In this document: positions 521 through 44,915 of the stretch, piece by piece | Layout: every line of letters starts with the position of its first letter | Numbering within the stretch: the first letter of the stretch is position 1 | From: Strigamia acuminata | Lineage: Eukaryota | DNA: 64,000 nucleotides | Reading direction: 5' to 3' | Assembly (NCBI GenBank): GCA_949358305.1 | Contig: OX442314.1 | Span: forward strand, 16,926,001 to 16,990,000 | Made by a program: the position numbers and the translations under genes | Notes under the pieces: model-generated | Databases searched by the model: none | Told to the model about the DNA's origin: nothing | The model's input: only the letters and a program-made list of their open reading frames with translations

Positions 521-3030
521 TCATCTTGAACTTTCCATGCCATCCATCGTACATCTGTATACCAATCAATTACTATCTCATCAATATAATGAATGAATAA
601 CAAAACTTGCCTATTTGCAGGAGCAGATGATTTACTCTCTGGTACTTGATCCGCCACTGCTTCCAGGACTCCAACCGCCAAATTATGACAACCCGGGCCC
701 AGTTGTATGTCCTCATCAACATCAGCCTAAAATTAAAAACATAATCGGATTAAATAAATCCTTCGGTAAAAATGTCACCTTGTACCATGCTCAATTTCAA
801 TTTTTGTGGATCGATGCGACTGCTGTTTTTACTGCCAACTGTATTCCAACCGTCCTCACCCATGCTTGATCCGCCACCCATACCTCCAAAACCACAAACA
901 AACCGGCCGTGAGAATAATTTACACGCAGCTAAATAAGATTTTTACTTTTTCGTTTATCTTCAATTCGTTGGTGAGATTGAGGTTGAGTTAAAGACATTT
1001 CTTTTTCCAAAACTTCTCTTTCCGCTTTTACATGAATTTGATCGGAAGTTTTTAGATTACCGTCATCTCTTCTAGGGACCCAATTATTTTGTCGCAAATC
1101 GATGACATCTTGCAACATGAAATAAACTCTCGGCGATGTTTGTCGTTTATTAATAATTTCCTTCATCATGTGAATGTAAGAGTTCATCTTATCACCCTAC
1201 AAAAAATGAACATAAACACCGCCAATTTTTTAAAATTGTAGTTCAATTTTCACTTGCCACTGGTTCTTTATTATTGCTTTTGCTCTTCTCTGGATCAATG
1301 TCCTTTCCGATAATTGTTAACAATATGCACAAACATTCTAATGAATCGTCATCTTCCTGATTGAGCAATTTTTTTAGGCAAATATGCATGATGGTAGCAG
1401 TGAGCATACGCAACTTAAAAAGTTCGCCAATAAATCTACGCGAAATAAAGAAACATTATTTTCTAGAACTATTTTCGACAATCAACACGATAAATTATTC
1501 AACCTGATATTCCCTAGCGATCTCCTTTTCGCTTTTCTTTCCAAATCCTCCAATTCTTCGTCCAATTCACGTTTCTTAGCTTCATCCTATAACAATAACA
1601 TTCGTTTCGTTATTCACATGCTGCCTTAAAAACCCCCTCAATATTCTCACATCAAGAAACATTTTCTTGGCTCTCTTGATTCTCGCAACATCATCGGCAG
1701 TGTCTCTTTCAAATTCCTTCTGGCATTTATTGAGCAGTAATTTACGAAAGTTTACAAAGTCATTATCTTGATTTCCTGTAGGGACTTTTTTCATAGCTAG
1801 ACATTTGCATAAGTAAGCAACACTAAAATTAGGTTCATCTAATGCCTGGAAAAAAATTGACACAAAGTCAACAATAATTCTACTTGGCAAAACAAATACC
1901 TACTTACTTTTTCAAATACTAAGTCAATAACACCCATTAGCCTCTCTTCAGTGTCTATACTTAAATCGTTTACTTTTTTCGATAATGTGTTAAACTTCTG
2001 CGGTGTCAACTCATTGAGAATACCTCCGACTCTTTTATATAAATCCTAAGAATATTCAAAAAAGTTAACACAATACAGTTTCCGAATAAAACGTATTCCT
2101 TACCTCGGTCTTAAGAGCCTCGGTGTCTGTATCCTTGCCAAATTTATGAGTTTGCTTCCATGCATTCTCAGACTTGTTCAATCGCACATCAGGATTGGAA
2201 GATAACAGATCAATCTCCTTCTTTTGCTCAGTTTCAGCAACTTGCTGGCTTAGGCAACGGTTAACTTGAGCCTGATAAAATTTCATTAGCACGAAAATAA
2301 AATAGATAAATAAATAAAAAAGCGGCAAAACACTTACGTTCCTAAGTGCCCTATTAGAAATTATATATTCACATTTGAAATCTGTTACAGGAAGATGAAG
2401 GCTTTTAGACCCAGCTGGACTAACGGGTCGCTCAAACGGTTTTGTTTTATTAGACTTTAAAAACAACATCAAACTTAACTTAAACATAAATGTTAAACTT
2501 AAATATTAAACTGAAAAAAAAACCTCTACCTCTCTTATATAAATCTTACGAACATTCAAAAACATTAGCACAATGCAGTTAACTCATTTCCTTACTTCGG
2601 TTGTAAGTGTGTCGGTATCGGTATCTGTATCTTCGCCAAATTTGTAAGTAGGCTTACATGCATTCTCAGGCTTATTCAATCGCATATCAGGATTGGAAGA
2701 TGGGCATGTTTGAACAATCTTTTTTTTCTTGATTAAGTTGGTGACAAGTTCATCTAGCAATTTCTTGTGGCCTGGTTTGATCTTGAATTTCTCGCAGAAA
2801 TCGTAAAACATTCCATACACTTTGACACTTTTAAGTGGTTCAGCTTGCTTAATAACCTCTGCATTTTCAATTAAAAACACTTCAATTTCATTAACTTCTG
2901 TTAATGAACTTAAACTATGTTCATTATCGTATCCAGTAATTTCTAAGCAAAAACGAACTTCTTCCGGCAGAAGTAATAATGTTTCCTTAAAACCCGAGTT
3001 GTTAACGGCACCTTGATCTTCGTTGTCCAT
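521..3030 (-). CDS. Chimeric eIF4G-derived gene D: novel N-terminal exon + complete MIF4G domain + part of the linker, stopping before MA3 (predicted, multi-exon)
   Basis: ATG at 3030 ([13 protein letters not shown]...). Exon 1 ends TTE|GTAAGG at 2596. Phase-compatible exons follow: [109 protein letters not shown] at 521-523 corresponds to a parental CGA. Could be a young pseudogene. Confidence 0.6.
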
Positions 3031-3140
3031 GACAGAAATCTGGATGGAGATGCTGCGGTAAACTTTCAACAAGCACTCCCGGCCTCAAGGTAGAACTGGT
3101 CGTGTAATCAGTGTGGTCCCGTGTGGTTCTCTGAGCATAG

Positions 3141-3506
3141 TTAAGGGAATTCCCCTCATCTGTGCAGTAGGCGTTGGGGACAGGGAGCTCCTCAGCCAGG
3201 AGTGATTAATGCTGTTTTCTTAATGTTTTTTTCTGCCCCCCTTGTTGACTAATGCATGTTGACTAATGCGCTGGCCCCCCTTGATTCCCCTTCCCCTTGC
3301 AAACCTCACCTTACTGTTTTTTTAATGTGATGGGGAATTGGGCACTTACTTGTTAGTCGCGATATGGTTAGTATGCATTAGTCATTCCTGGTTTTGTGGT
3401 TTGTGTCTGTAATTTTACCCAACAATACACAAAAAACCAAGTCACTCCTGGCTGAAGTGCCCCCTGTCCCCAATGCCTACTGCACAGATGAGGGGAATTC
3501 CCTTAA
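3141..3506. mobile_element. Non-autonomous TIR element (Kolobok-like MITE)
   Basis: Inverted repeats of about 65 bp (GGGAATTCCCCTCATCTGTGCAGTAGGC... / ...GCCTACTGCACAGATGAGGGGAATTCCC) flanked by TTAA at 3141-3144 and 3503-3506. TTAA plus purine-purine termini fits Kolobok rather than piggyBac. Confidence 0.75.
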
Positions 3507-3611
3507 TCTATACTCAGAGTTTTGTGCCTATAGAAAATTAGATTTTACGGTAACATTCGTTTTTACCAATAAAATTGGTTTTTCCATATAAAAAATTCGT
3601 TTTAATCCAAT

Positions 3612-3893
3612 ACAAATTCATTTTTGGACAAAAAATTCACTTTTGGACAAAAAATTCACTTTTGGACAAAAAATTCACTTTTGGACAAAAAATTCATTTT
3701 TGGACAAAAAAATTCATTTTTGGACAAAAAATTCATTTTTGGACAAAAAATTCATTTTTGGACAAAAAATTCATTTTTGGACAAAAAATTCATTTTTGGA
3801 CAAAAAATTCATTTTTGGACAAAAAATTCATTTTTGGACAAAAAATTCATTTTTGGACAAAAAATTCATTTTTGGACAAAAGATTCATTTTTA
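3612..3893. repeat. 19-bp minisatellite (TTTTTGGACAAAAAATTCA)n, about 14 units
   Basis: Directly visible tandem array. It produces the periodic FLDKKFIFGQKIHFWTKNS ORFs in three frames. Confidence 0.95.
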
Positions 3894-4384
3894 GTTGAAC
3901 CTTGGTGGTAAATCAAGTTGACTTGAGAAAAACACAGAATGACCACTCCGCCTTTGATGTTTACTGAAGTGATTGTTGGGTCAGCGACTGCAGGCAACCA
4001 GCAGCGGCGATGGTGATTCCGTGGCAACAAGCAAGAAACAAGCAGGAAATCACAGAATAACACAGAATGGCCACTTCACCGCCGTGAGCACCAGGAATGC
4101 ATCAGTGTCATCTTGTGGCAATTTATGCCCCAATGCAGACAAACATTGTAAAAAACACTACAATTCAGATTTCGTAAGATTTCAAGATTTGTCGTCAAAA
4201 TATAATTATCTACCCTTCAGACTTTAAACATTTTGCTCAATTTTGCTACAATTTGTGAAATTTTATGGATCTCCAGGATCTCGGAGATTTCATGGATTTC
4301 AAAGCCATTTTGCTTATCAAAATACAAGAAAAAATAAATTTTAATCGACTTAAAAATCAAGTAGCCATCTTAAGAAACAATACG

Positions 4385-7700: not shown

Positions 7701-10700
7701 ACTTGAGTCTCGAGACGAAGAAGGTGCGTTTCTAAAATTTAAAACAATTATTATTTTCGTAATTAAATTCAAATTCTAATTTTTTTACCGATTAATTCCT
7801 CGTCTTGAATCTTCGACGCGAGCACATGGTTCGTTAACGAGAGCGTGAAATCTGTAAACCAATTAATTACAATCTACAATTTCTTAAATGAATAACAAAA
7901 CTTACCTATTTGCTGGAGCAGATGATTTACTCTCTGGTTCCCAGCTACTTGTCCTTGATCCGCCACTGCTTCCACGACTCCAACCAACAACATAACGACC
8001 ACTGGTGGTTTCACAAGGCTCTCGTGACTTCACTGTAAACTCTAACTTCTGTCAGCATCCCACAAATATACATATATATAAAACAAGAAAATAAGACAAT
8101 AAACCAATTTTACATTCTTCCTAATGAATTCTTCTGTCTTTACACTAGGTAGTAAAAACTGAGCCCATTGTAAATTCCACGATCTCCACAATTCACCGAC
8201 TTCGTGCGTTCCCTTAATTAAAAAACAACAAATTAATCGTTTTGATTTTAAATATATAAATAAAGCGGTATTACCAATTTCTTAGAAACAGCATGCAAAA
8301 CGGCAGACACAAAAGAGCCAGCATAACCTGTTTCGAAACAAGGCTGGGCTGCCTCATGAAGCCACACCAAAGGTAATGTGCTATCTTCAATCAAAGGCGC
8401 AATTAATTCGCCTAAATATTCCCAAATATGAGGACTATCAATTGCATAACCTTCGGCCAAACTCAGAATTGCTTGAAGGCTGCAAGAAAAATTATAAATC
8501 AAGTATTAAAAAGTGGAAAAAATGAAAAATCGGAACTTTTTATCTTGTATTAACCATAGGGTACCCTTTAATATACTGCTCAGGAGTCATGACTTTCGCC
8601 TTTATTAAATCATGCATCAGTTGACCAATCTGTTGCCTCATTTTAGCCGTGCGTCGTAGAACGTAACAGAATGCATAAGTAACAAAAAAAGAAATTGTTG
8701 TGGAAGCAAATGTTTCTGAAACGCACAGAATAGCTTCCTAGAAGCACAAAAATTCAAATTCAGATACGTTTTTGAACCGCTAAAACAAAATAAATATCCT
8801 ACTTGAAAATCCGAAGTATGTAAAAATTCATCGAGTATTGCCCTAGCTTTCTTTTTAAATTCCTTTTTAGTTAAGTCGGGACATAATAGTAAAAGAGGTC
8901 TTTTACTACTATGGTCGGGATTTTCTCTCAGAGCTACGTCATCTTTCTTCTCTTCGCTGGTAGTACTACTCTCTCGACTGTTATCTCCTGCAGGGTGTCT
9001 ACTTTCCGTAACCAGCTGAAATTGCATTTTTTTTTTCCTGCCATGCACAACAGCTTTGCCAAGATGCTGATCAGAGGGTGCCATTTGGATACCTCGATCT
9101 TTACTTGAGTCCCGAGACGGCGAAAGAGAGTTTCTGAAATTTAAAACAATTATTATTTTCGTGAACAAACACAAAATAATTTTTTTTACCGATTAATTCC
9201 TCGTCTTGGTTCGTTATTATTACTTTTGCTTTTCTCTGGATCAATGTTTGTTCCGATAGTTGTTAGCATTGTGGACAAAACTTCGAATGATTCATCATCT
9301 TCGCGTTTGACCAATTTTTTTAGGCAGTCGTACATGATGTTTGCAGTAAGCATGTGCAACTCAAAGAGTTCGCCAATAAATCTACGCGAAATAGAATAGC
9401 ATTTTTTTCTAGAATTATTTTCAACCAATCAACACAATAAATTATTCAACCTTATATTTCCTAGCGACCTCGTTTTCTCTTTTCTTTCCAAATCCTTCAA
9501 TTTCTCATCCGATTCCTCAGACAATTCATCTTTCATAGCTTTATCCTTCAATAAAATTCGTTATTCACATGCTGCCTTAAAAACCCCATAAACATTCTCA
9601 CATCGGTAAACATTTCCTTGTCCGTCCTAATTTTCGTAATATCAGCAGGACTGTCTCCTTCAAATTCCTTCTGGCATTTTTTGAGCAAGAATTCACGAAA
9701 TTTTACAAAGTGATTATCTTGATTTCCTGTAGGGATTTTTTTCATTCTTAGACGTTGGCATAAATTGGTGTAAGCGATACTGAAATTAGGTTCATCTAAT
9801 GCCTGGCAAAAAAAATTAACACAATATCAACAACAATTCTTCTTGGCAAAACAAATAACTGCTTACTTTTTCAAATACTAAGTCAATAACACCCATTAGC
9901 CCTTCTTCAATGATTGACTGGCATTTAACTTGAGCCTGATAAAATTTCACGAAAATCAAATAAACGCATAAATAACAAACTAAAAAAATACTTACATCCC
10001 TAGGTTTGGCACAAGACTTTACATATCCAGGAGTATGAGATCTTTGAAACCCAGCTAGACTAACGGGCTTTGTTTTATTAGACTTTAAAAAACAACATCA
10101 AACAGTTAAAAAAAAAGAAAAAAAAAAAAAAAAAAAAAAACTCTTATATTACCCAATCTGTAACTGAATCCTTTATAACTTCCAGATCTGGTAAACCTTC
10201 TGGTTTTCGTAAGGACAGTGGCTGAAACTGCATTTGCAGCAAAAATGATCGATCATATTGTCGTTTTCCTTCAGGATTTAAAGGACTCCATTGATCTAAA
10301 ACCACAAAGAAATCCAGTTAAACATTCACCCCAATCTCCTAAACATCGTTTACTAACCTTTCTTAGAAATAGTTTGACTTTTGGTAATAGGTTGATCTAT
10401 TACATCAATCACTTGTTCATTCCTCTCAAAATCTTGACTAACTTTAGTATTTTCTTCAATCTTTTCACTCAATTTACGTTCTTCCTCCTTAGAATTTATG
10501 TTATCAGTGAGAGAAACCTCTTGTGCGACCGCAGGACTACCTTCAGGTAAGTTAATCTAATAAAACAAGACATTTGCACACATTCGTCTAATGTCTGGAA
10601 AAAATTTATCACAAAATCAACAATAATTGAGCTGGCAAAACGAATAACTACCGGTACATACTTTTTCAAATACTAAGTCAATATCACCTATTAGTTTTTC

Positions 10701-12016
10701 TTTAGTGTCTATACTATACTCAAATCATTTTACTTGTTTAACTAATTTGTTAAACTACTTCACTGTTAACTTATTGAGAACACCTCTGACCGCGGAGTAC
10801 GACTTTTGTCCGAGTCTCAGACATGAGCATCTGAATCTCTGTCTAAGTCTTTCCGAATTCTACCTACATTTTTCCGAATTCTACCTACATTTTTCCGAAT
10901 TCTACCTACATTTTTCCGAATTCTACCTACATTTTTCCGAATTTTAGCTACATCTTTCCGAATTTTACCTACATCTTTCTGAATTTTTCCGAATTCTGCC
11001 TAAATCTTGCCAAATCTCTATTCAAATCTTTGCAAGTTTCTATCTGAATCTTTCAAAATGCCGCTAGAATCTGTCTGAATCCTGCCTGACTCCATACGAA
11101 TCCTTCCAAATTTGTGAGAATCTTTCAAAACCCAAAACCGAATTGAAAAAAAAGATTCGAATCTCTTGACATGCAGATTCTGATTGTCGTACCCCCCGCC
11201 TCTGATTCTCATATAAATCCTACGAATATTCAAAAAAAATAACAGGATGCAGTATAACAGAGAATAACATCGGGTACCCGTACCCGTACCCGTAACCGTA
11301 CCCGCCCGTACCCGTAGGGTACGGGCGGGTACGGTTATAGATCTCCCGCGACTCCCGGTTACGGGTCGGGTACGGGTACGTTTTTTGTTCGTTTTTTGTA
11401 CGTTTTTTGTCCTGCTGGCCACGTAATCGCGGGTACGGGTAGGGTAGGGTAGGGGGATTCCGGGATAGCCCGGGTACGGGCGGGTACGGGTACGAAATTG
11501 TTTCGGTGACGGGTAACGGGCGGGTAACGGGTAAACTTTTTTCGCCAATGTTATTCTCTGCAGTATAACTATGACTCAATTCCTTACCTCGGTCGTCAGA
11601 GTTTCGGTATCAGTATCTTTGCCAAGTTCGTGAGTAGGCCTCCATACATTGTCAGGCTTATCCAACAGCACATCGAGATTGGAAAATGATGTTTGAATAT
11701 TATTTTTCTTGATTAGATCGGCTATAAGTTCCTCTAACATTTTTTTGTGGCCTGGTTTAAACTTGAATTCTTCACAAAAATTGTAAAATATTCCATAGGC
11801 TTTGATACTTTTACGTGGTTCAACTTGCTTAATAATCTTTGCATGTTCAATTAAAAACACTTCAATTTCATTGACATCTGTTAATGAACTTAAACTATGT
11901 TCATTATCGTATCCAGTAATTTCTAAGCAAAAACGAACTTCTTCCGGCAGAAGTAATAATGTTTCCTTAAAACCCGAGTTGACAACGGCACCTTGATCTT
12001 GGTCTTCGTTGTCCAT
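4762..12016 (-). CDS. Chimeric, circularly permuted eIF4G gene A: novel N-term - eIF4E-binding motif - partial MIF4G - MA3 - MA3 - W2 - eIF4G N-terminal Q-rich region - PABP-binding motif (predicted)
   Basis: ATG at 12016. YDRSFLL at 10237-10257. In-frame fused exons at about 9910, 9205, 8005, 5915 and 5750. W2 reads through in ORF 5672-6094 ([25 protein letters not shown]...). Ends [20 protein letters not shown] at 4762. Requires skipping the MITE-disrupted exon at about 10660-11220. Confidence 0.55.
8875..8920. mobile_element. 32-bp palindromic micro-insertion with 7-bp TSD, in frame inside a coding exon
   Basis: GTCGGGA + CATAATAGTAAAAGA GG TCTTTTACTACTATG + GTCGGGA. Empty site at about 25365-25371. 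Adds 13 codons ([13 protein letters not shown]). Confidence 0.8.
10783..11206. mobile_element. hAT-like MITE with internal 21-bp minisatellite, inserted in a MIF4G exon copy
   Basis: 8-bp TSD CCTCTGAC/CCTCTGAT. Imperfect TIRs CGCGGAGTACGAC / GTCGTACCCCCCG. Internal (TTTTCCGAATTCTACCTACAT)n. Interrupts a DLY..VRG.LNKLT exon that also carries a TAG. Confidence 0.75.
11250..11568. mobile_element. 303-bp hAT-type MITE (GGGTAC-rich, fold-back), intronic
   Basis: Perfect 13-bp TIR CAGAGAATAACAT/ATGTTATTCTCTG (11258-11560). Perfect 8-bp TSD CAGTATAA. Clean empty site in the duplicate at about 27898-27905. Confidence 0.92.
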
Positions 12017-12360
12017 GACAAAAATCTAGATGGAGATGCTGTGGTAAACTTTCAACACGCACTCCTGGTCGTGTAGTCAGCCCCGTGTGGTGTCATATGA
12101 GCACAGATTAAGGGAATTCCCCTTATCCGTGCTCGTGACCACGCAACACAATGCCAGGAACGTTTCAGCGCCATCGTGTGGCAACGTTTGTCCCAACACG
12201 GAAAAACATTGTGATTACACTGCGCATCGAGAGGGAAAATCTGAAACAAATTCGAAAAAGACTTAAAAATTGGAAATCTAGATGTATTCTGAGATTTTAG
12301 ATTTAGTATGAGTTTAAAGATTTGCTTTCAAATTTTAACTATTTGCTTTCAGACATTAAA

Positions 12361-12651
12361 ATGAGCGTCCAACCCGCGGCCCCCAGGCCGCATGCGGCTT
12401 AGAATCGCTAGGGATGCGGCATTTAATTTTTTTTTATATTCTAGTGTTTGTTTTCTTTAGACAACAAACAGCATTGAAATTAGGATTATTATACGAGGAT
12501 TCTTTGCTTACCTGTGGTGGTGTATATCAAGAAAATTATGTATGGACTTTTTTTTTTGCTCATCAGCTATCGTCGGTGTATTTTATGTGTGGCCCAAACA
12601 ATTCCTCTTCTTCCAATGTTGCCTGGGAAGCCAAGATGTTGGACATCACTG
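12361..12651. mobile_element. hAT-Charlie MITE resembling MER30 (copy 1 of 4)
   Basis: Ends GTCCAACCCGCGGCCC..GGCCGCATGCGGC and GCTCATCAGCTATCGT..GTGTATTTTATGTGTGGCCCAA..TGGGAAGCCAA.A..TTGGACA.C.CTG. Empty sites at about 4220 and 13773. Family assignment is from recalled consensus. Confidence 0.7.
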
Positions 12652-12791
12652 CTTTAAAACTTTTGCTCAATTTTGCTCCAATTTGTAAGATTTTGTGGAT
12701 TTCCAGGATTTCATGAGCTTTGATTAATTTCAAAACTAGCTACTCTAGCTACATGTATTATATTTTAGTTTAATTCACCTTGGCCGCCACA

Positions 12792-12960
12792 TACAGTGGG
12801 GGGGCAAAACTAAATTAAGAAATGTGACATGTTGAATCTCATGGCTCTATCTCGGGGAAAAAAAGGAGAAAAACCAATAATGAAATTTTAACTGAATACT
12901 TGTCTAACATTCTGCTTTGTTCTCCTAAATTTTTTTTTTAAATCTATCCGTTAGTTCTGA
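12792..12960. mobile_element. Possible one-ended Tc1-like remnant (TA-CAGTGGGGGGGCAAAACT); also at about 19742, 29116 and 36065
   Basis: TA followed by a CAGT(G)nCAAAA terminus typical of Tc1-family TIRs. No matching second TIR found. Confidence 0.35.
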
Positions 12961-13039
12961 AGAAAAAAATTATTTCGTGAAGTGACATCAAAAATTAAGA
13001 GGCAAAAGTAAGTTAACAACTCTGTTAACCATCGAGAAA

Positions 13040-13262
13040 CATAACTATTCTCACCCCGAGAAACATTTCCTTGGTTTTTTTTTATTCTCGCAACAACATC
13101 TGCAGTCTCTCTTTCAAATTCCTTCTGGCATTTATTGAGCAGTAATTTATGAAATATCACGAAAGTTATTATCTTGATTTCTCATATATACTTTTTTCTT
13201 AGCTAAACATTTGCATAATTTGGCATAAGCAACACTGAAATTAAGTTTATGTAATGCCTACC
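13040..13262 (-). pseudogene. Orphan frameshifted MIF4G exon (AL.KLNFSVAYAKLCKCL...); copies at about 19990-20202, 29365-29585 and 36315-36525
   Basis: A +1 insertion after DNNF gives a premature TAA. There are no flanking eIF4G exons. Confidence 0.8.
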
Positions 13263-14815
13263 AAGACATTAACAGAACATCAATAATAATTCTACTTGGC
13301 AAAACAAATTAAAAATTTGCCCATCTGTGAATGTGTGAGGGATTTCGTTTTTGTGCCTGCTTATAGTGTAGTCTCGCAAGTAAACGGCGATTAAAAAGTC
13401 CTTCATTTTGACTCAATCAACGAATGAGGTCCACTTATTTAGTTATTTGAACACTATTATATATTTTCGGCTTGGCTCACCTTTTAGGAAGTGGAGGCTT
13501 TGCCTGAAAGCATTGGGATGACTGGAAGAGACCCCTCGATCTATTTTTCGTCTCAGCCTTTTTGAATTTCCTTATAAAAACTCAAACTGGCAGAAACCAC
13601 TTTAAAAAAAAAAACCACACCAGCCGTAGTTTTTGTTTCTGAAGTTTTTTGTGATCGTTTTCAGCTGTTTTTGATGCCTATTCTGTTACTTACAGAAACT
13701 TTCAATGCACACCTATTGAGATAAAGTAAGCTTTCTTAGATTTTCCTTCAAATTTTAATTATCTACCGTCAGACTCTAAAATTTTGCGCAATTTTGCTGC
13801 AGTTTTCATGAATTTATATGATTTTGGGTATTACATGAGATTTCATGGGTTTCATGATTTACAAAATCCAAATTCTTGACTCCTAAGATATCCACCATTG
13901 GCTATCCTCTCAGCTTTGATTCGTGTTTTATACTTAAAATTAATCGTGCTTTCAAATAAGGCTAGTGTCTGTTAAATTTGCATAATGCAAAATTACCGTA
14001 AACTTTTTTTTTTCCAGTTTTTATTTTATTGGTTATTGAACAACAAAGGTTTTGTCATACAATGTGCATTTACCCAATATTAAACCTAAAGCCAGACGCC
14101 CCACAAACTCAGCGATGCATTATATTATGTAATTCCCCATTATCTCAATTAATATAATAATAATATATGTAAATGAAAGAATAATTTTCTAGGAAAAAAG
14201 ATTTGAGGAGCTATAATGGATAAATTTATTTCATTTGGCTGATCACCTCAAATTTCCCTATTCCTGTGTTAGATTTCACCTCGCTATTGTACTTCTGCAA
14301 TCGAAATCTTGAGAAACAAATAGAACTCATGGTTAATACTTGGTTATAATATAATTTACACAAACGTAAATATAACTGGCTACTCTAGCTGCAATATACA
14401 AAACAATTGGCAATGCTTTTTTTTTTGTTGTATTCATGACAATATACAACTCGAGACTCCATTACAACATGCCTTTTTTATCAGTCACAATTTTGTTAAA
14501 GCAGTCCAAAGGCCAATTTAAGCCATTTTTCTTACCAAAAAAACAAGAAAAAATAAATTTTAATCGACTTAAAAATCATGCAGCCATCATAAGAAACAAT
14601 AATTAAAAAACAAAAACTGTAGTGAAAAAAAAAAAGAAAAAAAAAACACTTTCGGAAGAAAAAAAATAATACATATACGATTGTACCCTAAAATCCCCCC
14701 CTCCCCCTCGTTAGTGCGGCAGCAACGACGATGGGGTGGAGCAGCCAGTCGATGTTCGGAGCATAGGCCAGTAGATTTGATGGGTTGTGATTACTTTCTA
14801 AGGGGAAGCCATGAC

Positions 14816-15968
14816 TCAGCTTTGATCCAAAGTTTTTGGATTATTTTCGTCTCTTCTGGGAACCCAATTGTTCTGTCGCAAATCTGTGACATCTTGCAAC
14901 ATGAAACGAACTCTCGGCGATGCCTGTCGCTTATTAATGATTTCCTTCATCATTCGAAAGTAAGAGTTCATCTTATCATCCTACATAAAATAAATACCGC
15001 AATTAGAACACAACTTTTTTTAAACTGTAATTTAATTTCCACTTGCCACTGGTTCTTTATTATTGCTTTGGCTCTTCTCTGGATCAATGTCTTTTCCGAT
15101 AGTTGTTAACAATATGCAAAAACATTCTAATGAATGGTCATCTTCCTGATTGAGCAATTTTTTTAGACAATCATGTATGATGCTGGCAGTGAGCATGTGC
15201 AACTTAAAAAGTTCGCCAATAAATCTACGCGAAATAAAAGAAACATTATTTTCGACGATCAACACGATAAATTATTCAACAACCTTATATTCCCTAGCGA
15301 TCTCCTTTTCGCTTTTCTTTCCAAATCCTCCAATTCTTCGTCCAATTCACGTTTCTTAGCTTCATCCTATAACAATAACATTCGTTTCGTTATTCACATT
15401 AAAAACCCCCTAAATATTCTCACATCAGGAAACATTTCCTTGGCCCTCTTGATTCTCGCAACATCATCCGCAGTGTCTCTTTCAAATTCCTTCTGGCATT
15501 TATTGAGCAGTAATTTACGAAAGTACCGGTATACAAAGTGATTATCTTGATTTCCTGTAGGGACTTTTTTCATAGCTAGACACTTGCATAAGTCAGCAAC
15601 ACTGAAATTAGGTTCATCTAATGCCTGGCAAATAATTAACACAAAATAAACAATAATTCTACTTGGCCAACAAATAATTGCTTACTTTTTCAAACACTAA
15701 GTTAGTAACACCCATTAGCCTTTCTTCAGTGTCTATACTTAAATCGTTTACTTGTTTCGATAATGTGTTAAACTTCTCCTGTGTCAACTCATTGAGAATA
15801 TCTCCGACTCTTTTATATAAATCCTAAGAATATTCAAAAAAGTTAACACAATACAGTTTCCGAATAAAACGTATTCCTTACCTCGGTCTTAAGAGCCTCG
15901 GTGTCTGTATCCTTGCCAAATTTATGAGTACGCCTCCAAGCACCTTGATCTTGGTCTTCGTTGTCCAT
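14816..15968 (-). CDS. Stand-alone MIF4G minigene C1 (6 predicted exons)
   Basis: [10 protein letters not shown] fused in frame to [19 protein letters not shown]|, then [35 protein letters not shown] and [23 protein letters not shown]. The last codons and the 3'UTR come from the parental end (AGC TGA GTCATGGCTTCCCC). Confidence 0.65.
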
Positions 15969-16046
15969 GACAGAAATCTAGATGGAGATGCTGTGGTAAA
16001 CTTTCAACCCGCACTCCTGGTCGTGTAGTCAGCCCAGTGTGGTGTC

Positions 16047-16086
16047 ATATGAGCATAGATATAGATTACTATATCTATGATATGAG
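16047..16086. mobile_element. 26-bp palindromic micro-insertion with 7-bp TSD (duplicate at 32371-32410)
   Basis: ATATGAG + CATAGATATAG ATTA CTATATCTATG + ATATGAG. Empty sites at about 12095 and 28432. Confidence 0.8.
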
Positions 16087-16433
16087 CACAGATTAAGGGA
16101 ATTCTCCTCTTCTGTGCTCGTGACCACGCAACACAATGCCAGGAACGTTTCAGCGCCATCGTGTGGCAACGTCAAGATGTAGATGCTGTGGTAAACTTTC
16201 AACGAGCACTCCGGGTAGCAGTTGTTGTGGTTTTATTTAGTTTGATTATTTTAGATCTTTGAAATGATTTAAAATGACTAATATTTAATAATAAAATGTT
16301 TTTAAAAGTCTGGAAGCAATGTTTTAAGCTGTTACTTTTTCAAAATTCATGATTCGTCAGTTCGCTCAGTTTATCGGTTGTTATGTCAAGCTTGTTTTGA
16401 AATTTATGATCGATTATTCTGTTTGGACACAAA

Positions 16434-18516
16434 ATGGCTTCCCGCAACTCGAGTGTTTGCTCTCCGGATATTTCCAAAGTTTCTTCCCGCGACTCCAGTG
16501 TTTGCAGTCCATCTCCTGATCTTCTTGACTTTCTTCCAACTCCGGCACACAGTAGGCGCACACGTCGAGGTGGTGTCCACCTCCCGAAAATCCCCGTGGC
16601 TGAATTTAAGAAATTCGAGAAAGGTCGCCCCATTAATAGACAGGCAAAGCAGATTGTATTGAATTTATTTAATCAATTTTTTCATAAGCAACCTGAAGTT
16701 GGTTGTAAAGAGTTGATTAAACTTCTGTCAAATGTAACCGGTTTGGGAATTCAAAGCATACAGAAAATAAGAAGAGAGATGAATGATAAAGGTGAGTAAA
16801 AACATTGAAGTTTAAAAATAAAAATTAACACTTTCTTTTGGTTTAGGACAATTGAAAACACCAGGGAAGAAGAGGTGCGGTGATTTTCGGAAGCGTATGA
16901 ACAAATATGATTCGTTCACACAATCCGCTATTCGTGCGAAAGTGCACGAATTTTTCCGTAGAGGTGAGGTGCCCACACTGAAAAAGGTTGTAGCCAAAAT
17001 TCAGAATGATGAGACACTTCCGAGTTTAAGCAAAGAAGCATTACGTTTATTTCTACACGACATCGGTTTCAAGTTTATGAAACATAAAAGCAATGCAGCT
17101 TTAATTGAACGCGAAGACATAGTCGCTTGGAGAAGGAAGTATTTGCGTCAGATTAGCGGTTATCGCCGAGAAGGAAGAAAAATTTATTACATGGACGAAA
17201 CATCGGTTAATGCAGGTTATTAACTGAAATTATAATTTAATTTGAAATTTGAAATTAACTAAATGCTAATTCTTATTGTAGGTGAAAATGTAAGCAAATC
17301 ACACACAAATGGTTTTCTGAGTACTGGACTGAAACATCCCACACCCAAAGGAGGTAGGCATATTGTTGCTTACATTGGAAGTGACACAGGTTTCATCAAG
17401 AATGGTTTACTTCTTTTCAAGTAATTTAAATTACATTAATCTGGAAGTATTGTGTATTTAATTATTGTAATTACTTTTAGAGCTACCGGTAAGAAATCTG
17501 ATGATACCTACCACTCAAAGATGATCTCGGTAAACTTTATGAAGTGGATGGAAACTATTTTTCCAAACTTGGAAAAAGGCAGTGTGATAGTGATGGATAA
17601 TGCATCCTATCACACTGAAGAATTGGATCCAACACCCACAACTGAATGGCTTAAAGCCGATATCCAAAAATGGTGCATTGACCATAATGCACATTTTGAG
17701 GATAATTATGTAAAGGCTGAGTTACTGGAGGTATTCTATTTTAAAATATAACAATAATTTAATATATCATCAATACTTATTTATTATACTAGGTTGTAGC
17801 TACAATAAAAAACAATTTTGTCAGCTATGTCTTTGATTCCAGAGCCCAGGATTTAGGGTTCAAAGTTTTGCGCTTGCCTCCACACCACTCTTGCCTAAAT
17901 CCAATTGAAATGGTTTGGAGACAGGTCAATAATTGAATAAACTTGCTGCATCTAAACACAAAAGAAATTGTATTATAAAAAAAATAAAATTACAGGTTAA
18001 GCACCATGTTCGCTTTAACAACACCACATTTAAATTGCCACAAGTCAAACAACTGATGCGACAAGGGACTGTAGTAGTGACGTCCCAGCAATGGGAAAGT
18101 TATTTTTCGCATGTAAAAAGGAAGGTTTGTAAATTAATAATTCATATTCGTTCTTATCTTGTCTCATATACAACATTCTATTGAAGGAACAACAAATGTG
18201 GGATCAGGAAGAATTAATCAATGATGTAATGGAGCAATTCATCATTAACGCCGGGGATGATTCATCAAGTGATGAAGATTTATCAAGTGGTGAAGATTTC
18301 TCAGACAGCCAAGATAATGATGAAGACGCTACAACAACTGCAACAAACACAACTTGTCTCAATCCTTTCCTTCTGCAACGAATAAAAACCGAAGATTTAT
18401 CAAGTGATGAAGATTTCCCAGACAACCACGATAATGATGAAGATACTACAACAATTGCAACAAACACAACTTATGTCAATTCTTTCCTTCTGCAACAAAT
18501 AAAAACCGAATTTTGA
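16434..18516 (+). CDS. Intron-containing IS630-Tc1-mariner transposase, DD82E (Sailor-type), about 568 aa, copy 1
   Basis: Exons 16434-16791, 16847-17215, 17282-17420, 17481-17730, 17793-17924, 17996-18124 and 18187-18516 join with GT-AG in frame. Catalytic motifs YMDET, VMDNASYH and LPPHHSCLNPIE, with 82 residues between the second D and the E. Confidence 0.88.
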
Positions 18517-19359
18517 AATAACAAATAAATTTGGTATTACATCGATAATCTATGACAGACAGACCGGACTTCATGTCTTAAATTCATCACTTGAGTCAGT
18601 AATCTTTCGTCTCATTCGCGGACTTCGGGCGACAAATCTCCCGTTTCTGATTAAATAAAATTAATTTTTTTTTTTACTTTTGCTGACAATTTTCGTCTGA
18701 GCGCCCGTTGTTTTCTTCGATGGCTTTGTTGCCCACATCGTTAACACTTAAAATTCAAACAGAAATAAAACTGTACATCGATTGCAGTAACCTCAAATAT
18801 ATGAAAATAAATGCAAACAAAATGAATCGGTAAATTGATTATTACAATGACTTAATTAATTCCATAATTATGGTTCAGTGATTATTTTATAAAAAAGCCT
18901 GTACTCAGATCATCCTCTAATTCGAGAACAAATGTGCATCGGCCAGTATAAAAAGCTCTTCCTTCTACTTCAACAATTACTGCCGGATATTTTCCACACT
19001 TGGTTAGGTTGTGACGATTCTACTTTTGGCTGAATAATTAGCCATTACAAGAGATAAATCGGTTTAAACAAGACATTTCTACAACTAGAAATAACCTAAC
19101 CGAGATAAGCTACGGAAGTCTGTACAACGTGAATATGTGATCAAATATAATAACTTACGATTTTCGTGTGATATAATTACATGTTTATTAACATTACAAC
19201 TGGGTTGTGGTTCTGGATAAGCATCGAGAGGGAAAATCTGGATCAAATTCGAAAGACTTACTATACAAATTGGAAATCTAGATGTATCCTAAGATTTTAG
19301 ATTTAGTAAGAGTTTAAAGATTTTCCTTCAAATTTTAATTATCTGCCTTCAGACTTAAA

Positions 19360-19603
19360 ACGGGTGTCCAACCCGCGACCCCCAGGCCGCATGCGGCTTT
19401 TAATTTTTTTTAAATATATTCTAGTGTTTGTTTTCTTTAGACAGCAAACAGCATTGAAATTAGGATTATTATACGAGTATTCTTTGCTTACCTGTGGTGG
19501 TGTATATCACGAAAATTTTGTATGGACTTTTTTTTTTTGCTCATCAGCTATCGTCAGTGTATTTTATGTGTGGCCCGGGAAGCCAAGATATTGGACATCC
19601 CTG
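19360..19603. mobile_element. MER30-like hAT MITE, copy 2 (internally shorter)
   Basis: GGGTGTCCAACCCGCGACC... ...TTGGACATCCCTG, in the same flanks as copy 1. Confidence 0.7.
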
Positions 19604-27800: not shown

Positions 27801-28353
27801 AGATTCGAATCTCTTGACATGCAGATTCTGATTGTCGTACCCCCCGCCTCTGATTCTCATATAAATCCTACGAATATTCAAAAAAAATAACAGGATGCAG
27901 TATAACTATGACTCAATTCCTTACCTCGGTCGTCAGAGTTTCGGTATCAGTATCTTTGCCAAGTTCGTGAGTAGGCCTCCATACATTGTCAGGCTTATCC
28001 AACAGCACATCGAGATTGGAAAATGACGTTTGAATATATTTTTTCTTGATTAGATCGGCTATAAGTTCCTCTAACATTTTTTTGTGGCCTGGTTTAAACT
28101 TGAATTCTTCACAGAAATTGTAAAATATTCCATAGGCTTTGATACTTTTACGTGGTTCAACTTGCTTAATAATCTTTGCATGTTCAATTAAAAACACTTC
28201 AATTTCATTGACATCTGTTAATGAACTTAAACTATGTTCATTATCGTATCCAGTAATTTCTAAGCAAAAACGAACTTCTTCCGGCAGAAGTAATAATGTT
28301 TCCTTAAAACCCGAGTTGACAACGGCACCTTGATCTTGGTCTTCGTTGTCCAT
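21873..28353 (-). CDS. Chimeric, circularly permuted eIF4G gene B: novel N-term - 4E-binding motif - partial MIF4G - MA3 - W2 - N-terminal region/PABP motif - complete second MIF4G (predicted)
   Basis: ATG at 28353. YDRSFLL at 26685-26705. W2 read-through in ORF 23617-23979 ([27 protein letters not shown]). [18 protein letters not shown] motif. The phase-0 donor DNSDS|GT joins the phase-0 DLYKRF exon at 22881. Ends KTLDQS* at 21873. Requires skipping the MITE-disrupted exon at about 27110-27868. Confidence 0.55.
27231..27854. mobile_element. hAT-like MITE (duplicate of 10783-11206) with expanded 21-bp minisatellite
   Basis: Same TSD and TIRs. About 14 near-perfect repeat units here versus about 4 in the other copy. 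Confidence 0.75.
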
Positions 28354-28682
28354 GACAGAAATCTAAATGGAGATGCTGTGGTAAACTTTCAACCCGCACT
28401 CCTGGTCGTGTAGTCAGCCCCGTGTGGTGTCATATGAGCACAGATTAAGGGAATTCCCCTTATCCGTGCTCGTGACCACGCAACACAATGCCAGGAACGT
28501 TTCAGCGCCATCGTGTGGCAACGTTTGTCCCAACACGGAAAAACATTGTGATTAAATCTGAAACAAATTCGAAAAAGACTTACTGTATAAATTGGAAATC
28601 TAGATGTATACTGAGATTTTAGATTTAGTATGAGTTTAAAGATTTGGCTTCAACTTTTAACTATTTGCTTTCAGACATTAAA

Positions 28683-31139: not shown

Positions 31140-32292
31140 TCAGCTTTGATCCAAAGTTTTTGGATTATTTTCGTCTCTTCTGGGAACCCAATTGTTCTGT
31201 CGCAAATCTGTGACATCTTGCAACATGAAACGAACTCTCGGCGATGCTTGTCGCTTATTAATGATTTCCTTCATCATTCGAAAGTAAGAGTTCATCTTAT
31301 CATCCTACATAAAATAAATACCGCAATTAGAACACAACTTTTTTTAAACTGTAATTTAATTTCCACTTGCCACTGGTTCTTTATTATTGCTTTGGCTCTT
31401 CTCTGGATCAATGTCTTTTCCGATAGTTGTTAACAATATGCAAAAACATTCTAATGAATGGTCATCTTCCTGATTGAGCAATTTTTTTAGACAATCATGT
31501 ATGATGCTGGCAGTGAGCATGTGCAACTTAAAAAGTTCGCCAATAAATCTACGCGAAATAAAAGAAACATTATTTTCGACGATCAACACGATAAATTATT
31601 CAACAACCTTATATTCCCTAGCGATCTCCTTTTCGCTTTTCTTTCCAAATCCTCCAATTCTTCGTCCAATTCACGTTTCTTAGCTTCATCCTATAACAAT
31701 AACATTCGTTTCGTTATTCACATTAAAAACCCCCTAAATATTCTCACATCAGGAAACATTTCCTTGGCCCTCTTGATTCTCGCAACATCATCCGCAGTGT
31801 CTCTTTCAAATTCCTTCTGGCATTTATTGAGCAGTAATTTACGAAAGTACCGGTATACAAAGTGATTATCTTGATTTCCTGTAGGGACTTTTTTCATAGC
31901 TAGACACTTGCATAAGTCAGCAACACTGAAATTAGGTTCATCTAATGCCTGGCAAATAATTAACACAAAATAAACAATAATTCTACTTGGCCAACAAATA
32001 ATTGCTTACTTTTTCAAACACTAAGTTAGTAACACCCATTAGCCTTTCTTCAGTGTCTATACTTAAATCGTTTACTTGTTTCGATAATGTGTTAAACTTC
32101 TCCTGTGTCAACTCATTGAGAATATCTCCGACTCTTTTATATAAATCCTAAGAATATTCAAAAAAGTTAACACAATACAGTTTCCGAATAAAACGTATTC
32201 CTTACCTCGGTCTTAAGAGCCTCGGTGTCTGTATCCTTGCCAAATTTATGAGTACGCCTCCAAGCACCTTGATCTTGGTCTTCGTTGTCCAT
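31140..32292 (-). CDS. Stand-alone MIF4G minigene C2 (duplicate of C1, offset 16324)
   Basis: Same exons and splice sites as 14816-15968; the ORF-track translations are identical. Confidence 0.65.
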
Positions 32293-38195: not shown

Positions 38196-41100
38196 TCAGC
38201 TCTCTTCAACCGATTCGTTTTCCGCTTCCTTCAGCCAAACATAAAAAGAACGGACAGAGTTCAAAGCCACGCCTTTACCCTCCTGTTCTACAGGATCTTC
38301 ACTCATCTCCCATAGTAAGAAAGCATCCTCAGAAATTATCTCTTCGTCATAAAGGAACCCGAAAAATGTGCACAATATTCCTAAATTAAATAAAAGAAAT
38401 CAGTTCAAATTGTAACTTAACTTTGATCAAATATATTTCATCACCTTTCGGTTGTTCCAATTGATGCATAAGAGCTTGCAGGGCGTAAAGTGCTTGCATT
38501 TCGCACGCTTCTGAATGATCCAAGTATTTTCTTAAAATATTACAACGATTTCTCAAAAGAGCTTCATCCACTTGTATCGTTGAGTCATCTGTTAAACATG
38601 AAAAACCAAAGAGAAAATTGTTTTTATAAAATGTTCATTTATGTGGAAACAGTATGGTCTTACCACTTTTTCCTAATACACTTTGACATACAGCTATCAT
38701 TAAAGCACGAACAAATGATGCTTCGTGACATTGGCTTTCATTCAGGTGTGCCTACAGTTAAAAAAGATAAAATCAACAAAAATCGACTTTTTCATTTGGT
38801 AATGTATTTCTCACGTCTATCCAATCGAAAATTTCTTCATTTTCAGATTGCTTACTAGCAAATAGTGCAGCTAACTCGATTTTCAGTTGCCCGGAAGAAA
38901 GATTGGTGGTTTTGCAAGGCTCTCGTGGCTTCACCGTAAACTCTAACTTCTAGCAACGACCAACAAGAAAAAATATATCTATCTAAAACCAGAACACGAC
39001 ACAATAAACCAATCTTACATTCTCCTTAATGAATTCTTCTGTCTTTAGACTAGCCGGTAAAAACTGAGACCACTGTAAATTAGACGATCTCCACAATTCA
39101 CCAACTTCATGTGTCCCCTTAATTAAAAAAACAACAAATAAATTGTTTTGTTTTGAAATTTATAAATAAAGCGGTATTACCAATTTCTTAGAAACAGCAT
39201 GCAAAACGGCAGACACAAAAGAGCCAGCACAACCTGTTTCGAAACAAGGCTGGGCTGCCTCATGAAGAAATGATAAAGGTAATGTGCTATCTTTAATCAA
39301 AGGCGCAATTAATTCGCCTAAATATTCCCAAATATGAGGAATATCAATTGCATAATCTTCAGCCAAACCCAGAATTGCTTGAAGGCTGAAAAAAAGAAGA
39401 AATAATAAGTATTGAAAAGAGAGAAGAAAAAAAATAAAAACATGAATTCTCTTGCATTAAACTTACCCTTTAATATACTGCTCAGGAGTCATGACTTTCG
39501 CCTTTATTAAATCATGCATCAGTTGGCCAATCTGTTGCCTCGTTTGAGCCGAGCGCTCTAGAACGCAATTGAATGCATAAGTAACAAAAAAAGAAATCGT
39601 TGTGGGAGCACAAATTTCCGAAATGCACAGAATAGCTTCCTAGAAACACAAAATTTCACAATCAGACAAGTTCTTAAACCGATAAAACAAAATAAATATC
39701 CAACTTGAAAATCAGTATTATGTAAAAATTCATCGAGTAGTGCTTTAGCTCTCTTTTCAATTTCCATTTCGGTTAAGTCAGGATTTCCTCTCAGAGCAAC
39801 ATCTTTCTTCTCTTCTCTGGTAATACTACTCTCTCGACTGCTGTCTATTGGAGCGCGGCCACTTTCCCCGCCAGCAATTGTTTTAACCGCTGCAATTGCT
39901 TGTTCACGCTCCTTCTCCTTTTGCGACTGCACGACAGCTTTGCCACTGCGCTGAGCAGGCGGTGCCATTTGAGTGCCTCGACCTTTACTTGAGTCTCGAG
40001 CCGAAGAAGGTGCGTTTCTAAAATTTAAAACATTTATTATTTTCGTAAGCAAATTCAAATTATTGTTCTTTTTACCGATTAATTCCTCGTCTTGAATCTT
40101 CGACGCGAGCACACGGTTCGTTAGCGAGAGCTTGAAATCTGTAAACCAAATAATTACAATCTACAATTTCTTAAATGAATAACAAAACTTGCCTATTTGC
40201 TGGAGCAGATGATTTACTCTCTGGTTCCTGGCTACTTGTCCTTGATCCGCCACTGCTTCCACGACTCCAACCAACAACATTACGACCACCCGGGCCCAGT
40301 TGTATGTCCTCATCAACATTAACCTAAAATTAGAAACATAATCGGATTAAATAAATCCTTCGGTAAAAATGTCACGTTGTACCTTGCTCAATTTCAATTT
40401 TTGTGGATCGATGCGACTGCTGTTTTTACTGCCAACTGTATTCCAACCGTCCTCACCCATGCTTGATCCGCCACCCATACCTCCTAAACCACAAACAAAC
40501 CGGCCGTCAGAATAATCTACACGCAGTTAAATAAGATTTTTACTTTTTCGTTTATCTTCCATTCGTCGGTGAGATTGAGGTTGAGTTAAATTGGTTTCTC
40601 TTTCCAAGGCTTCTCTTTCCGCTTCTAAATGAATTTGATCCAAAGTTTTTGGATTATTTTCGTCTCTTCTGGGAACCCAATTGTTCTGTCGCAAATCTGT
40701 GACATCTTGCAACATGAAACGAACTCTTGGCGATGCGTGTCGCTTATTAATGATTTCCTTCATCATTCGAAAGTAAGAGTTCATCTTATCATCCTACATA
40801 AAATAAATACCGCAATTAGAATACAACTTTTTTTAAACTGTAATTTAATTTCCACTTACCACCGGTTCTTTATTATTGCTTTTGCTCTTCTCTGGATCAA
40901 TGTCTTTTCCGATAGTTGTTAGCAGTCTGCACAAACATTCTAATGAATCTTCATCTTCCTGATTGAGCAATTTTTTTAGACAATCATGCATGATGCTGGC
41001 AGTGAGCATGTGCAACTTAAAAAGTTCGCCAATAAATCTACGCGAAATAAAAGAAACATTATTTTCTAGAACTATTTTTGACGATCAACACGATAAATTA

Positions 41101-44878: not shown

Positions 44879-44915
<37 letters not shown>

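What the first reader, a model, noticed from the sequence alone, without database searches (positions are those of the whole stretch)
521..38200. An eIF4G domain-shuffling array: five chimeric genes built from the neighbouring parent, with frame-preserving junctions
Seen: 38 kb downstream of eIF4G are made of its exons in new orders, and each unit starts at the same foreign ATG exon. Independent intra-exon junctions are in frame at about 15938, 9910, 9205, 8005, 5915 and 5750, as are the 39-nt insertion at 8882 and the small deletions in the SNKTK exon. If junction phase were random, about seven such events would have probability near (1/3)^7, roughly 1 in 2200. Orphan exon copies in the same array (e.g. 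13040-13262) do carry frameshifts, which serves as an internal control. Established: eIF4G is a modular scaffold with PABP, eIF4E, MIF4G/eIF4A-eIF3, MA3 and W2/Mnk sites. Inference: this is a young, selected family of rewired translation scaffolds, possibly germline-specific regulators, dominant negatives, or decoys for viral proteases, VPg or IRESs.
Basis: partly seen in the sequence, partly recalled or inferred. Interest (0 to 1): 0.93.

Follow-up and report, generated by a model that had tools for sequence, protein, structure and literature searches.

The report
Transposon-capped shuffled eIF4G gene array
Beside its eIF4G gene, a soil centipede carries a young row of intact, partly selected and transcribed genes rebuilt from shuffled eIF4G exons under a likely transposon-derived cap, which are predicted to have lost or weakened the main eIF4A contact and would then likely act as competitors or regulators of normal translation initiation.

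Summary
Confirmed and extended. The window is from a centipede close to Strigamia maritima. Downstream of an intact 28-exon eIF4G lie five open chimeric ORFs (283, 1381, 283, 1554, 603 aa) of four architectures; two are identical inside a 99.4% duplicated block. All 8 intra-exon junctions are in frame; 13 of 13 exon length changes are multiples of 3 versus 5 of 36 in introns; MIF4G copies show dN/dS 0.37-0.45 among themselves. An independent DNA run bridges the 9205 junction, and a spliced (RNA) run holds copy-specific exons and the W2-to-N-terminus junction. New here: the foreign first exon matches the N-terminal domain of P/THAP9-like transposases and folds like a SAM domain (weak Z), and every MIF4G copy is altered at the eIF4A interface (K740E, R953Y, or both contact repeats deleted) while eIF4E, PABP, MA3 and W2 motifs survive. 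Best reading: selected, eIF4A-uncoupled eIF4G competitors made by transposase capture plus tandem duplication and deletion. Weak points: U2/U4 need one disrupted exon skipped, only one of two orphan controls is broken, copy number may be inflated, and no protein or binding was tested.

The parts
38196..46821 (-). Parent eIF4G, 28 exons, 1556 aa (PABP-like motif, YDRSFLL, MIF4G, MA3, W2)
   Evidence: exon 1 is inferred from splice signals only
31140..32292 (-). U1: 9 foreign codons + end of exon 12 + complete MIF4G (exons 13-17), joined in frame to the parent's stop and 3'UTR; 283 aa
21873..28353 (-). U2: foreign domain - eIF4E motif - truncated MIF4G - MA3 - W2 - N-terminal/PABP region - complete MIF4G; 1381 aa (permuted order)
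14816..15968 (-). U3: identical to U1; 283 aa
4762..12016 (-). U4: foreign domain - eIF4E motif - truncated MIF4G - MA3 - MA3 - W2 - N-terminal region ending just after the PABP-like motif; 1554 aa
   Evidence: last exon seen with its intron retained in run X4
521..3030 (-). U5: foreign domain - exons 12', 11, 12 - complete MIF4G (K740E, R953Y) - linker; 603 aa
   Evidence: exon 17 copy seen in run X4
28025..28353 (-). Foreign first exon (copies at about 11690-12016 and 2734-3030): N-terminal domain shared with P/THAP9-like transposase-sized proteins; predicted SAM-like helical fold
28449..28458 (.). GGGAATTCCC palindrome 95 nt upstream of the U2 ATG (also 12112-12121 for U4, 3145-3154 for U5; one mismatch in U1/U3), part of a MITE end
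3136..3512 (.). High-copy MITE upstream of U5 with 65-nt inverted arms and 7-bp near-identical flanks; supplies the palindrome
   Evidence: high depth in DNA run X2
10662..11219 (-). Disrupted exon-13 copy (MITE insertion, two stops) that U4 must skip; twin at 27110-27867 in U2
13056..13257 (-). Orphan exon-14 copy, frameshifted (twin 29380-29581)
20000..20200 (-). Orphan exon-14 copy, open with AG/GT intact (twin 36323-36523)
11559..21878 (.). 10.3-kb block 99.4% identical to 27896-38201; holds U3 and the first exon of U4

Best explanation
This is a lineage-specific tandem family of intact, transcribed eIF4G chimeras, headed by a likely transposase-derived, predicted SAM-like exon, that likely act as eIF4A-uncoupled competitors of eIF4G and would tune or damp cap-dependent translation. 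Origin: the first exon and promoter of a P/THAP9-like DNA transposon were fused in frame to exon 12 of a tandem eIF4G copy (fusion shown; donor identity inferred); further tandem duplications and short-homology deletions, all at DNA level with introns kept, made new domain orders (shown); selection kept the in-frame products (shown statistically). Action (inferred): U2 and U4 keep the eIF4E motif, PABP-like motif, MA3 and W2, so they would bind eIF4E/PABP-bearing mRNPs, but U4's MIF4G lacks both eIF4A-contact repeats and U2's complete MIF4G carries K740E; U1/U3/U5 are MIF4G-only modules with K740E (U5 also R953Y) that would hold eIF3/RNA partners without properly activating eIF4A. U4's two MA3 domains recall PDCD4.
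For: Open ORFs and in-frame junctions. Exon length changes 13 of 13 multiples of 3 (10 distinct events) versus 5 of 36 in introns. Copy-versus-copy MIF4G dN/dS 0.37 (U1/U5, p=0.0009), 0.38 (U2a/U4a, p=0.016), 0.39-0.45 across clades. Neutral stop-free survival 0.0005 for U5 and 0.007 for the old U4 MA3 segment. Sequence past the stops and the skipped exon are decayed. Run X4 skips six introns exactly, so is RNA; it has pieces with 7 differences to U5 exon 17 (parent would give 34), 23 differences to U4's last exon (parent 68), 3 to the foreign exon, and a loose end reading across the W2/N-terminus junction. DNA run X2 bridges the 9205 junction and the 39-nt insertion with 6 differences in 1217 nt. 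Parent N739 and R953 map to DAP5 N86 and R295, the two eIF4A contacts named in PMC10746786; the residue after N is K or R in 40 of 40 homolog motifs but E in all four complete copies; the R953 position is R in 47 of 49 motifs but Y in U5. Foreign domain: 9 hits, two of them 1010-1267 aa, the Atlas placing one with P/THAP9 transposases at 0.90; model pLDDT 84, top 15 structural matches SAM-domain entries.
Against: No binding or translation was measured; N739 itself is kept in all complete copies and R953 in U1/U2/U3, and the importance of K740 rests on conservation plus a recalled mutagenesis that three paper searches did not find. MA3, a second eIF4A site (PMC9177959), is kept in U2/U4. Outside MIF4G, copy-versus-copy dN/dS is not below 1 significantly (0.64-0.78; W2 2.0). 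U2/U4 depend on an exon skip past an intact AG. One of two orphans is open, and 67 codons survive neutrally 40-60% of the time. X4 pieces differ from the window by 1-5%, so they may come from alleles or further paralogs. SAM Z-scores (at most 6.0) are below the tool's trust level; Pfam found no transposase family in the long homologs.
Confidence: 0.48

Rival explanations
1. Functional genes, but alternative activators: Mextli- or DAP5-like scaffolds that recruit eIF4E/eIF3 (and eIF4A through MA3 or a weakened MIF4G) to a subset of mRNAs, for example in the germ line.
For: U2 keeps every eIF4G module in a permuted order; N739 and R953 are kept in U1/U2/U3; Mextli has a MIF4G-like domain plus a 4E motif and promotes translation through eIF3 (PMC4573856 introduction); purifying selection is strongest on MIF4G.
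Against: U1/U3/U5 have no eIF4E or PABP motif; the eIF4A interface was hit in three separate ways (K740E, R953Y, deletion).
Confidence: 0.2
2. Immune-inducible antiviral decoys: fast-changing eIF4G fragments that soak up viral IRES, VPg or protease while being unable to drive translation.
For: A perfect GGGAATTCCC lies 95-114 nt upstream of three ATGs, one mismatch in the other two; 13 matches to a kappaB consensus versus 2.9 expected, 12 of them at these sites; MIF4G binds viral IRES and VPg (PMC9177959 Table 1); young, restructuring array.
Against: The palindrome is one inherited site counted on both strands, and is part of a high-copy MITE end, so the enrichment is not independent; the consensus is recalled; no segment shows dN/dS significantly above 1.
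Confidence: 0.14
3. Relaxed, near-neutral duplicates kept briefly for dosage or by hitch-hiking; open frames reflect earlier constraint and gene conversion from the parent.
For: Young segments have dN/dS 0.77-1.0 against the parent; copies carry 11-70 derived amino-acid changes per segment against 0-6 in the parent; blocks of 97-99.9% identity show ongoing homogenisation.
Against: Old segments (dS 0.24-0.37) stay open; dN/dS below 1 holds between copies that share derived changes; exon versus intron indel contrast.
Confidence: 0.12
4. Assembly artefact: haplotypes or repeats joined in tandem.
For: The 10.3-kb block is about 99.9% identical in its core and U1 equals U3; this block was not tested with reads.
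Against: Units are 83-97% identical to the parent and to each other elsewhere, far beyond alleles; contigs of a separate DNA run bridge copy-specific joints at 9205, 8882-8920 and 10570.
Confidence: 0.04

Closest known systems
Host-transposase fusion genes (Cosby et al., bioRxiv 10.1101/2020.05.07.082677; abstract and outline seen)
   Same: A DNA-transposon exon is captured into a host gene and makes a lineage-specific fusion protein.
   Different: There the captured part is mostly a DNA-binding domain joined by splicing to KRAB-type domains in tetrapods; here a SAM-like N-terminal piece heads a translation scaffold, is fused inside an exon, supplies the start codon, and was then amplified and reshuffled.
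Mextli (PMC4573856, abstract and introduction seen)
   Same: eIF4E motif plus MIF4G-like domain in an invertebrate eIF4G competitor.
   Different: Mextli is old, has a KH domain and C-terminal 4E motifs; these genes are recent direct copies of eIF4G exons.
DAP5/eIF4G2, PAIP1, CTIF, SLIP1 (listed in PMC9177959, passages seen)
   Same: Partial eIF4G module sets; MIF4G-only regulators resemble U1/U3/U5.
   Different: Ancient single genes; DAP5 keeps the eIF4A interface (N86, R295) and lacks the 4E motif, the reverse of U4.
PDCD4 (two MA3 domains that inhibit eIF4A; title seen in the reference list of PMC9177959)
   Same: U4 has two MA3 domains and no intact MIF4G interface.
   Different: U4's MA3s are about 220 aa apart, inside a 1554-aa protein with 4E, W2 and PABP-like motifs; inhibition untested.
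Eel multi-MIF4G eIF4G1-like proteins P0001/P0003
   Same: Lineage-specific proteins built from repeated eIF4G MIF4G domains.
   Different: Three MIF4G repeats that keep ILNKLT; no foreign cap or permuted W2/N-terminus seen.
Sdic-type tandem chimeric gene clusters of Drosophila (recalled, no call)
   Same: Young tandem chimeras from neighbouring genes with copy-number variation and gene conversion.
   Different: One architecture amplified, not several domain orders of one scaffold.

Membership tests
eIF4G (parent gene) | MIF4G, MA3 and W2 domains in order | tested here: met
   Pfam PF02854, PF02847, PF02020 on exons 14/17, 23, 28; aligns end to end with S. maritima P0002
eIF4G (parent gene) | YX4L-phi eIF4E motif upstream of MIF4G | tested here: met
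   YDRSFLL at aa 601; motif definition in PMC4573856
Canonical eIF4G (units U1-U5) | Full module set in canonical order | tested here: not met
   U1/U3/U5 lack 4E, MA3, W2; U2/U4 are permuted
Canonical eIF4G (units U1-U5) | Conserved eIF4A-contact surface of MIF4G | tested here: not met
   K740E in 4 of 4 complete copies, R953Y in U5, both contact repeats absent in the truncated copies; sequence level only
Host-transposase fusion gene | Part of the ORF derives from a DNA transposase | tested here: inconclusive
   Homologs P0054/P0055 are 1010-1267 aa; Atlas first hit 0.90, P/THAP9-like (family on 33% of that cluster), 7 of 10 best family hits in the same clan; Pfam gave no transposase family
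Host-transposase fusion gene | In-frame fusion to host exons under purifying selection | tested here: met
   the foreign part alone is borderline (dN/dS 0.47, p=0.056)
Host-transposase fusion gene | Fusion transcript observed | tested here: inconclusive
   Foreign exon present in RNA run X4, but no displayed piece bridges it to eIF4G exons
SAM domain | SAM helical fold | tested here: inconclusive
   Model pLDDT 84; best Z 6.0, rmsd 2.9, 69 aligned to CASKIN2 SAM; top 15 rows SAM entries, two of them named SAM from recall; no Pfam SAM hit
SAM domain | Self-association or RNA binding | not testable with these tools
   needs biochemistry
4E-BP / Mextli-like eIF4G competitor | Canonical 4E motif | tested here: met
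   YDRSFLL at aa 223 of U2 and U4 only
4E-BP / Mextli-like eIF4G competitor | Competes with eIF4G for eIF4E in cells | not testable with these tools
   needs pull-down or reporter assays
PDCD4-like eIF4A inhibitor | Two MA3 domains that bind eIF4A | tested here: inconclusive
   U4 has two MA3 copies; the first has D-to-G and I-to-S changes in the conserved AEDxxIDIP stretch; binding untested
Pseudogene array | Stops, frameshifts, dN/dS near 1 | tested here: not met
Retrocopies | Introns lost | tested here: not met
   60 intron copies align to the parent's introns

The most novel reading that the evidence does not exclude
A transposon has seeded an inducible, self-reshuffling eIF4G decoy locus: a MITE end supplies an NF-kB site, a captured SAM-like domain clusters the proteins, and unequal crossing-over keeps generating new domain orders that bind cap complexes or viral IRES/VPg but cannot engage eIF4A, giving an evolvable translational shut-off and antiviral system, and a natural series of circular permutations of eIF4G caught in the making.
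Probability: 0.14. Interest if true: 0.92.

Novelty: new variant of a known kind. Interest (0 to 1): 0.76.

Why it matters
eIF4G is one of the most conserved scaffolds of translation; its known derivatives (DAP5, PAIP1, Mextli, PDCD4) are ancient and their origin is not visible. Here such derivatives are seen arising, younger than the split from S. maritima, with every junction still readable, including a permuted order (W2 before the PABP region before MIF4G). The units are a ready-made natural deletion and permutation series for asking which eIF4G modules work out of order, and what a MIF4G does once eIF4A contact is lost. It also extends transposase capture from transcription factors to translation control. 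Searches for Strigamia with eIF4G (0 papers), for chimeric or lineage-specific eIF4G duplicates (7 listings, none on this by title or abstract start) and for eIF4G decoy paralogs (2 listings) found no description; the library lacks most subscription journals.

Tried and rejected
No whole genome is held, so other copies or the donor transposon elsewhere could not be sought. The run search listed no holder on record as RNA; X4 was recognised as RNA only from its intron skips. Only 300-12300 was laid with reads, so U1, U2, U3 and the 10.3-kb duplicate were not tested directly. In one search no displayed X4 piece bridges the junctions at 9910, 9205, 8003, 5750 or the long first intron of U4, and bins 9523-9923 and 10726-11126 had no X4 cover; tables were cut (1204 pieces and 34 joints not shown), so this shows nothing. 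Joints 405>4302 and 8000>691 in X4 are parent sequence lying on two copies, not array joints. Runs X5 and X6 (other organisms, small share) gave depth 0-5 over eIF4G-derived bins and covered only repeats, so no sister-species test was possible. The foreign exon found no longer homolog by the word search (0 of 368 candidates; weak evidence), and two eIF4G-exon searches returned only P0002 from Strigamia. Single-sequence fold of the foreign domain was poor (pLDDT 57); Foldseek gave no match under E 0.001; sequence searches of PDB with the long homologs found nothing; a locus search with the domain alignment could not be run. A two-copy complex prediction of the foreign domain gave no verdict. 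Paper searches for the recalled eIF4A-binding mutants found nothing. Earlier-findings look-ups were empty. Retroposition rejected (introns kept). My first guess of a water flea from intron size was rejected.
Full report
Setting. A self-comparison of the window shows 0.4-38.2 kb to be a mosaic of pieces of the region 38.2-46.1 kb. That region is an intact eIF4G on the minus strand: 28 exons, 1556 aa (exon 1 is inferred from splice signals), with Pfam MIF4G, MA3 and W2. Its exon 17 is 95% identical to Strigamia maritima eIF4G, the next hits being 75% or less, so the host is a geophilomorph centipede close to that species.

Gene models. The same foreign start occurs five times. Using exon copies found by BLAST I built five models, all open with canonical or GC donor sites: U1 and U3 (283 aa: 9 foreign codons plus a complete MIF4G closed on the parent's own stop), U2 (1381 aa: foreign domain, eIF4E motif, truncated MIF4G, MA3, W2, N-terminal/PABP-like region, complete MIF4G), U4 (1554 aa: foreign, eIF4E motif, truncated MIF4G, two MA3, W2, N-terminal region ending after the PABP-like motif) and U5 (603 aa: foreign, complete MIF4G, linker). 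Three choices were mine: a shifted acceptor for exon 15 in U2/U4, the next AG for exon 18 in U5, and skipping of an exon-13 remnant. In U5 that remnant can also be read as a 15-nt in-frame micro-exon. In U2/U4 it holds a MITE and two stops yet keeps its AG; if used, U4 ends at 194 aa. This is the weakest point of the long models.

Is it more than chance? Eight intra-exon junctions are in frame (14 of 15 coordinate pairs, the exception resolved); three intronic junctions join phase 0 to phase 0, which is less telling because 15 of 27 parent introns are phase 0. Of 53 whole-exon comparisons 13 changed length, all by multiples of 3 (10 distinct events, two from my acceptor choices, two with internal compensating shifts); of 60 intron comparisons 36 changed length and 5 by multiples of 3 (U3, fused exons and the two post-stop exons were left out; shared history makes rows non-independent). 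A substitution-only simulation at half the observed dS gave stop-free survival of 0.0005 for U5, 0.007 for the old MA3 segment of U4 and 0.07-0.46 for the six other segments. Against the parent, old segments have dN/dS 0.13-0.46 and young or linker segments 0.77-1.04; since the parent barely changes, copy-versus-copy values are the fair test: MIF4G 0.37-0.45 (p 0.0002-0.016), a short exon-3 copy 0.20 (p 0.006), foreign domain 0.47 (p 0.056), but MA3, linker and N-terminal parts 0.64-0.78 and W2 2.0, none significant. Selection is thus moderate and centred on MIF4G and on ORF continuity. Controls: sequence behind the U4 and U5 stops and the skipped exon are decayed; of two distinct orphan exon-14 copies one is frameshifted and one is open.

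Is it real and expressed? Four of six listed runs were laid on 300-12300. DNA run X2 has a 1217-nt contig with 6 differences across the 9205 junction and the 39-nt insertion (U2 would give 83 mismatches), and contigs across the joints near 10570 and 2500-2730 (the last with 28 differences and 13 gap letters). Run X4 skips six introns between 6098 and 7181 at the predicted sites, so it is RNA, though those contigs may be the parent's (97% identical there). Copy-specific pieces in X4: U5 exon 17 with 7 differences (parent 34), bounded by the exon ends; U4's last exon with its intron retained as the early stop predicts, 23 differences and 14 gap letters (parent 68 and 65), ending at the acceptor 4895; the foreign exon with 3 differences; and a contig ending at 5930 whose 30 further letters are W2-end sequence in the U2-like form, which the parent cannot give. 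The 10.3-kb duplicate holding U3 is about 99.9% identical in its core and was not tested, so copy number is four or five.

Age and origin. All copies share M765 and Q802 with the parent where S. maritima has K and K, and M occurs in none of 19 homolog motifs: the array postdates that split (gene conversion could blur this). Segment dS runs from 0.02 to about 0.4, showing repeated rounds. Introns are kept, junctions have short or no homology, each unit ends in pieces of the parent's 3'UTR, and the latest duplication breaks in that shared UTR: tandem duplication, unequal crossing-over and deletion. The W2-to-exon-3 fusion is what read-through between tandem copies would give, hence the permuted order (inference).

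The foreign exon. It has 9 relatives among 1.84 billion representatives, all at or near protein N-termini; two are 1010 and 1267 aa and the Atlas groups one with P/THAP9-like transposases, although Pfam and PDB sequence searches are blank. With a 16-sequence alignment it folds at pLDDT 84 and its best structural matches are SAM domains at Z up to 6.0, a consistent but weak signal. A GGGAATTCCC palindrome sits 95-128 nt upstream of each ATG (one mismatch in U1/U3); it is the end of a high-copy MITE, whole at U5 and reduced to about 30 nt elsewhere. It matches a recalled NF-kB consensus but is one inherited site.

The eIF4A interface. PMC10746786 (passages) names DAP5 N86 (yeast N615) and R295 (yeast K837) as contacts with the two eIF4A domains; PMC4402527 (passages) shows N86A abolishes binding. 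One offset maps both onto PDB 4iul and thence to parent N739 and R953. The truncated MIF4G of U2 and U4 lacks both ends that carry these residues. All four complete copies keep N739 but have R735G and K740E beside it; the K position is basic in 40 of 40 homolog motifs, the R position in 34 of 40. U5 adds R953Y (R in 47 of 49 motifs). I recall charge-reversal mutants of these basic residues in eIF4GII abolishing eIF4A binding, but could not find this in the library. Meanwhile the eIF4E motif, PABP-like motif (label recalled) and W2 boxes persist in U2/U4, and MA3, a second eIF4A site (PMC9177959 passages and section 12), persists too.

Verdict. Real, transcribed and selected genes: about 0.85. 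As to mechanism I favour eIF4A-uncoupled competitors (0.48) over alternative activators (0.2), immune decoys (0.14, overlapping the first), drifting duplicates (0.12) and artefact (0.04). It is a new variant of known kinds (transposase capture; tandem chimeric clusters; partial-eIF4G regulators), not found in the searches made. Supplements were not consulted.

Noticed in passing
window 16410-18516 (+), twin about 32730-34840: An intron-containing DDE_3 (Tc1/IS630-like) transposase gene sits just upstream of U3 and U1, next to a partial duplicate of the foreign 5' leader; weak Pfam hit E 0.0023. No clear terminal repeats found.
   Followed up: partly
window 48600-59500 (-): Neighbours upstream of eIF4G: a Y-box-like gene (read from sequence; a 30-aa exon gave no Pfam hit), eIF5A and EMC1. 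Three translation-related genes lie together.
   Followed up: partly
window 11258-11560: A palindromic, GC-rich MITE with 16-nt inverted ends in U4's first intron, absent from U2.
   Followed up: partly
window 10790-11200 and 27240-27850: MITE with a 21-bp tandem array of different length in the two copies, inserted in the exon-13 remnant with an 8-bp near-duplicated target.
   Followed up: partly
window about 16050-16085 and 32375-32410: A 26-bp hairpin with 11-bp inverted ends and a 7-bp target duplication between the palindrome and the ATG of U3/U1; resembles a minimal P-type element.
   Followed up: no
window 8803-9133, 25293-25581, 611-726: Compensating frameshifts inside linker exons of U4, U2 and U5: local sequence is scrambled but the frame is restored.
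   Followed up: partly
proteins P0001, P0003: Eel eIF4G1-like proteins with three MIF4G repeats, one annotated with a LITAF tail: a possible independent MIF4G expansion.
   Followed up: no
window 3620-3880: High-copy satellite-like repeat of about 19 bp shared with other organisms' runs.
   Followed up: no
window 59900-61150: Region of skewed composition with retroelement-like look inside or beside the EMC1 gene's 5' part.
   Followed up: no
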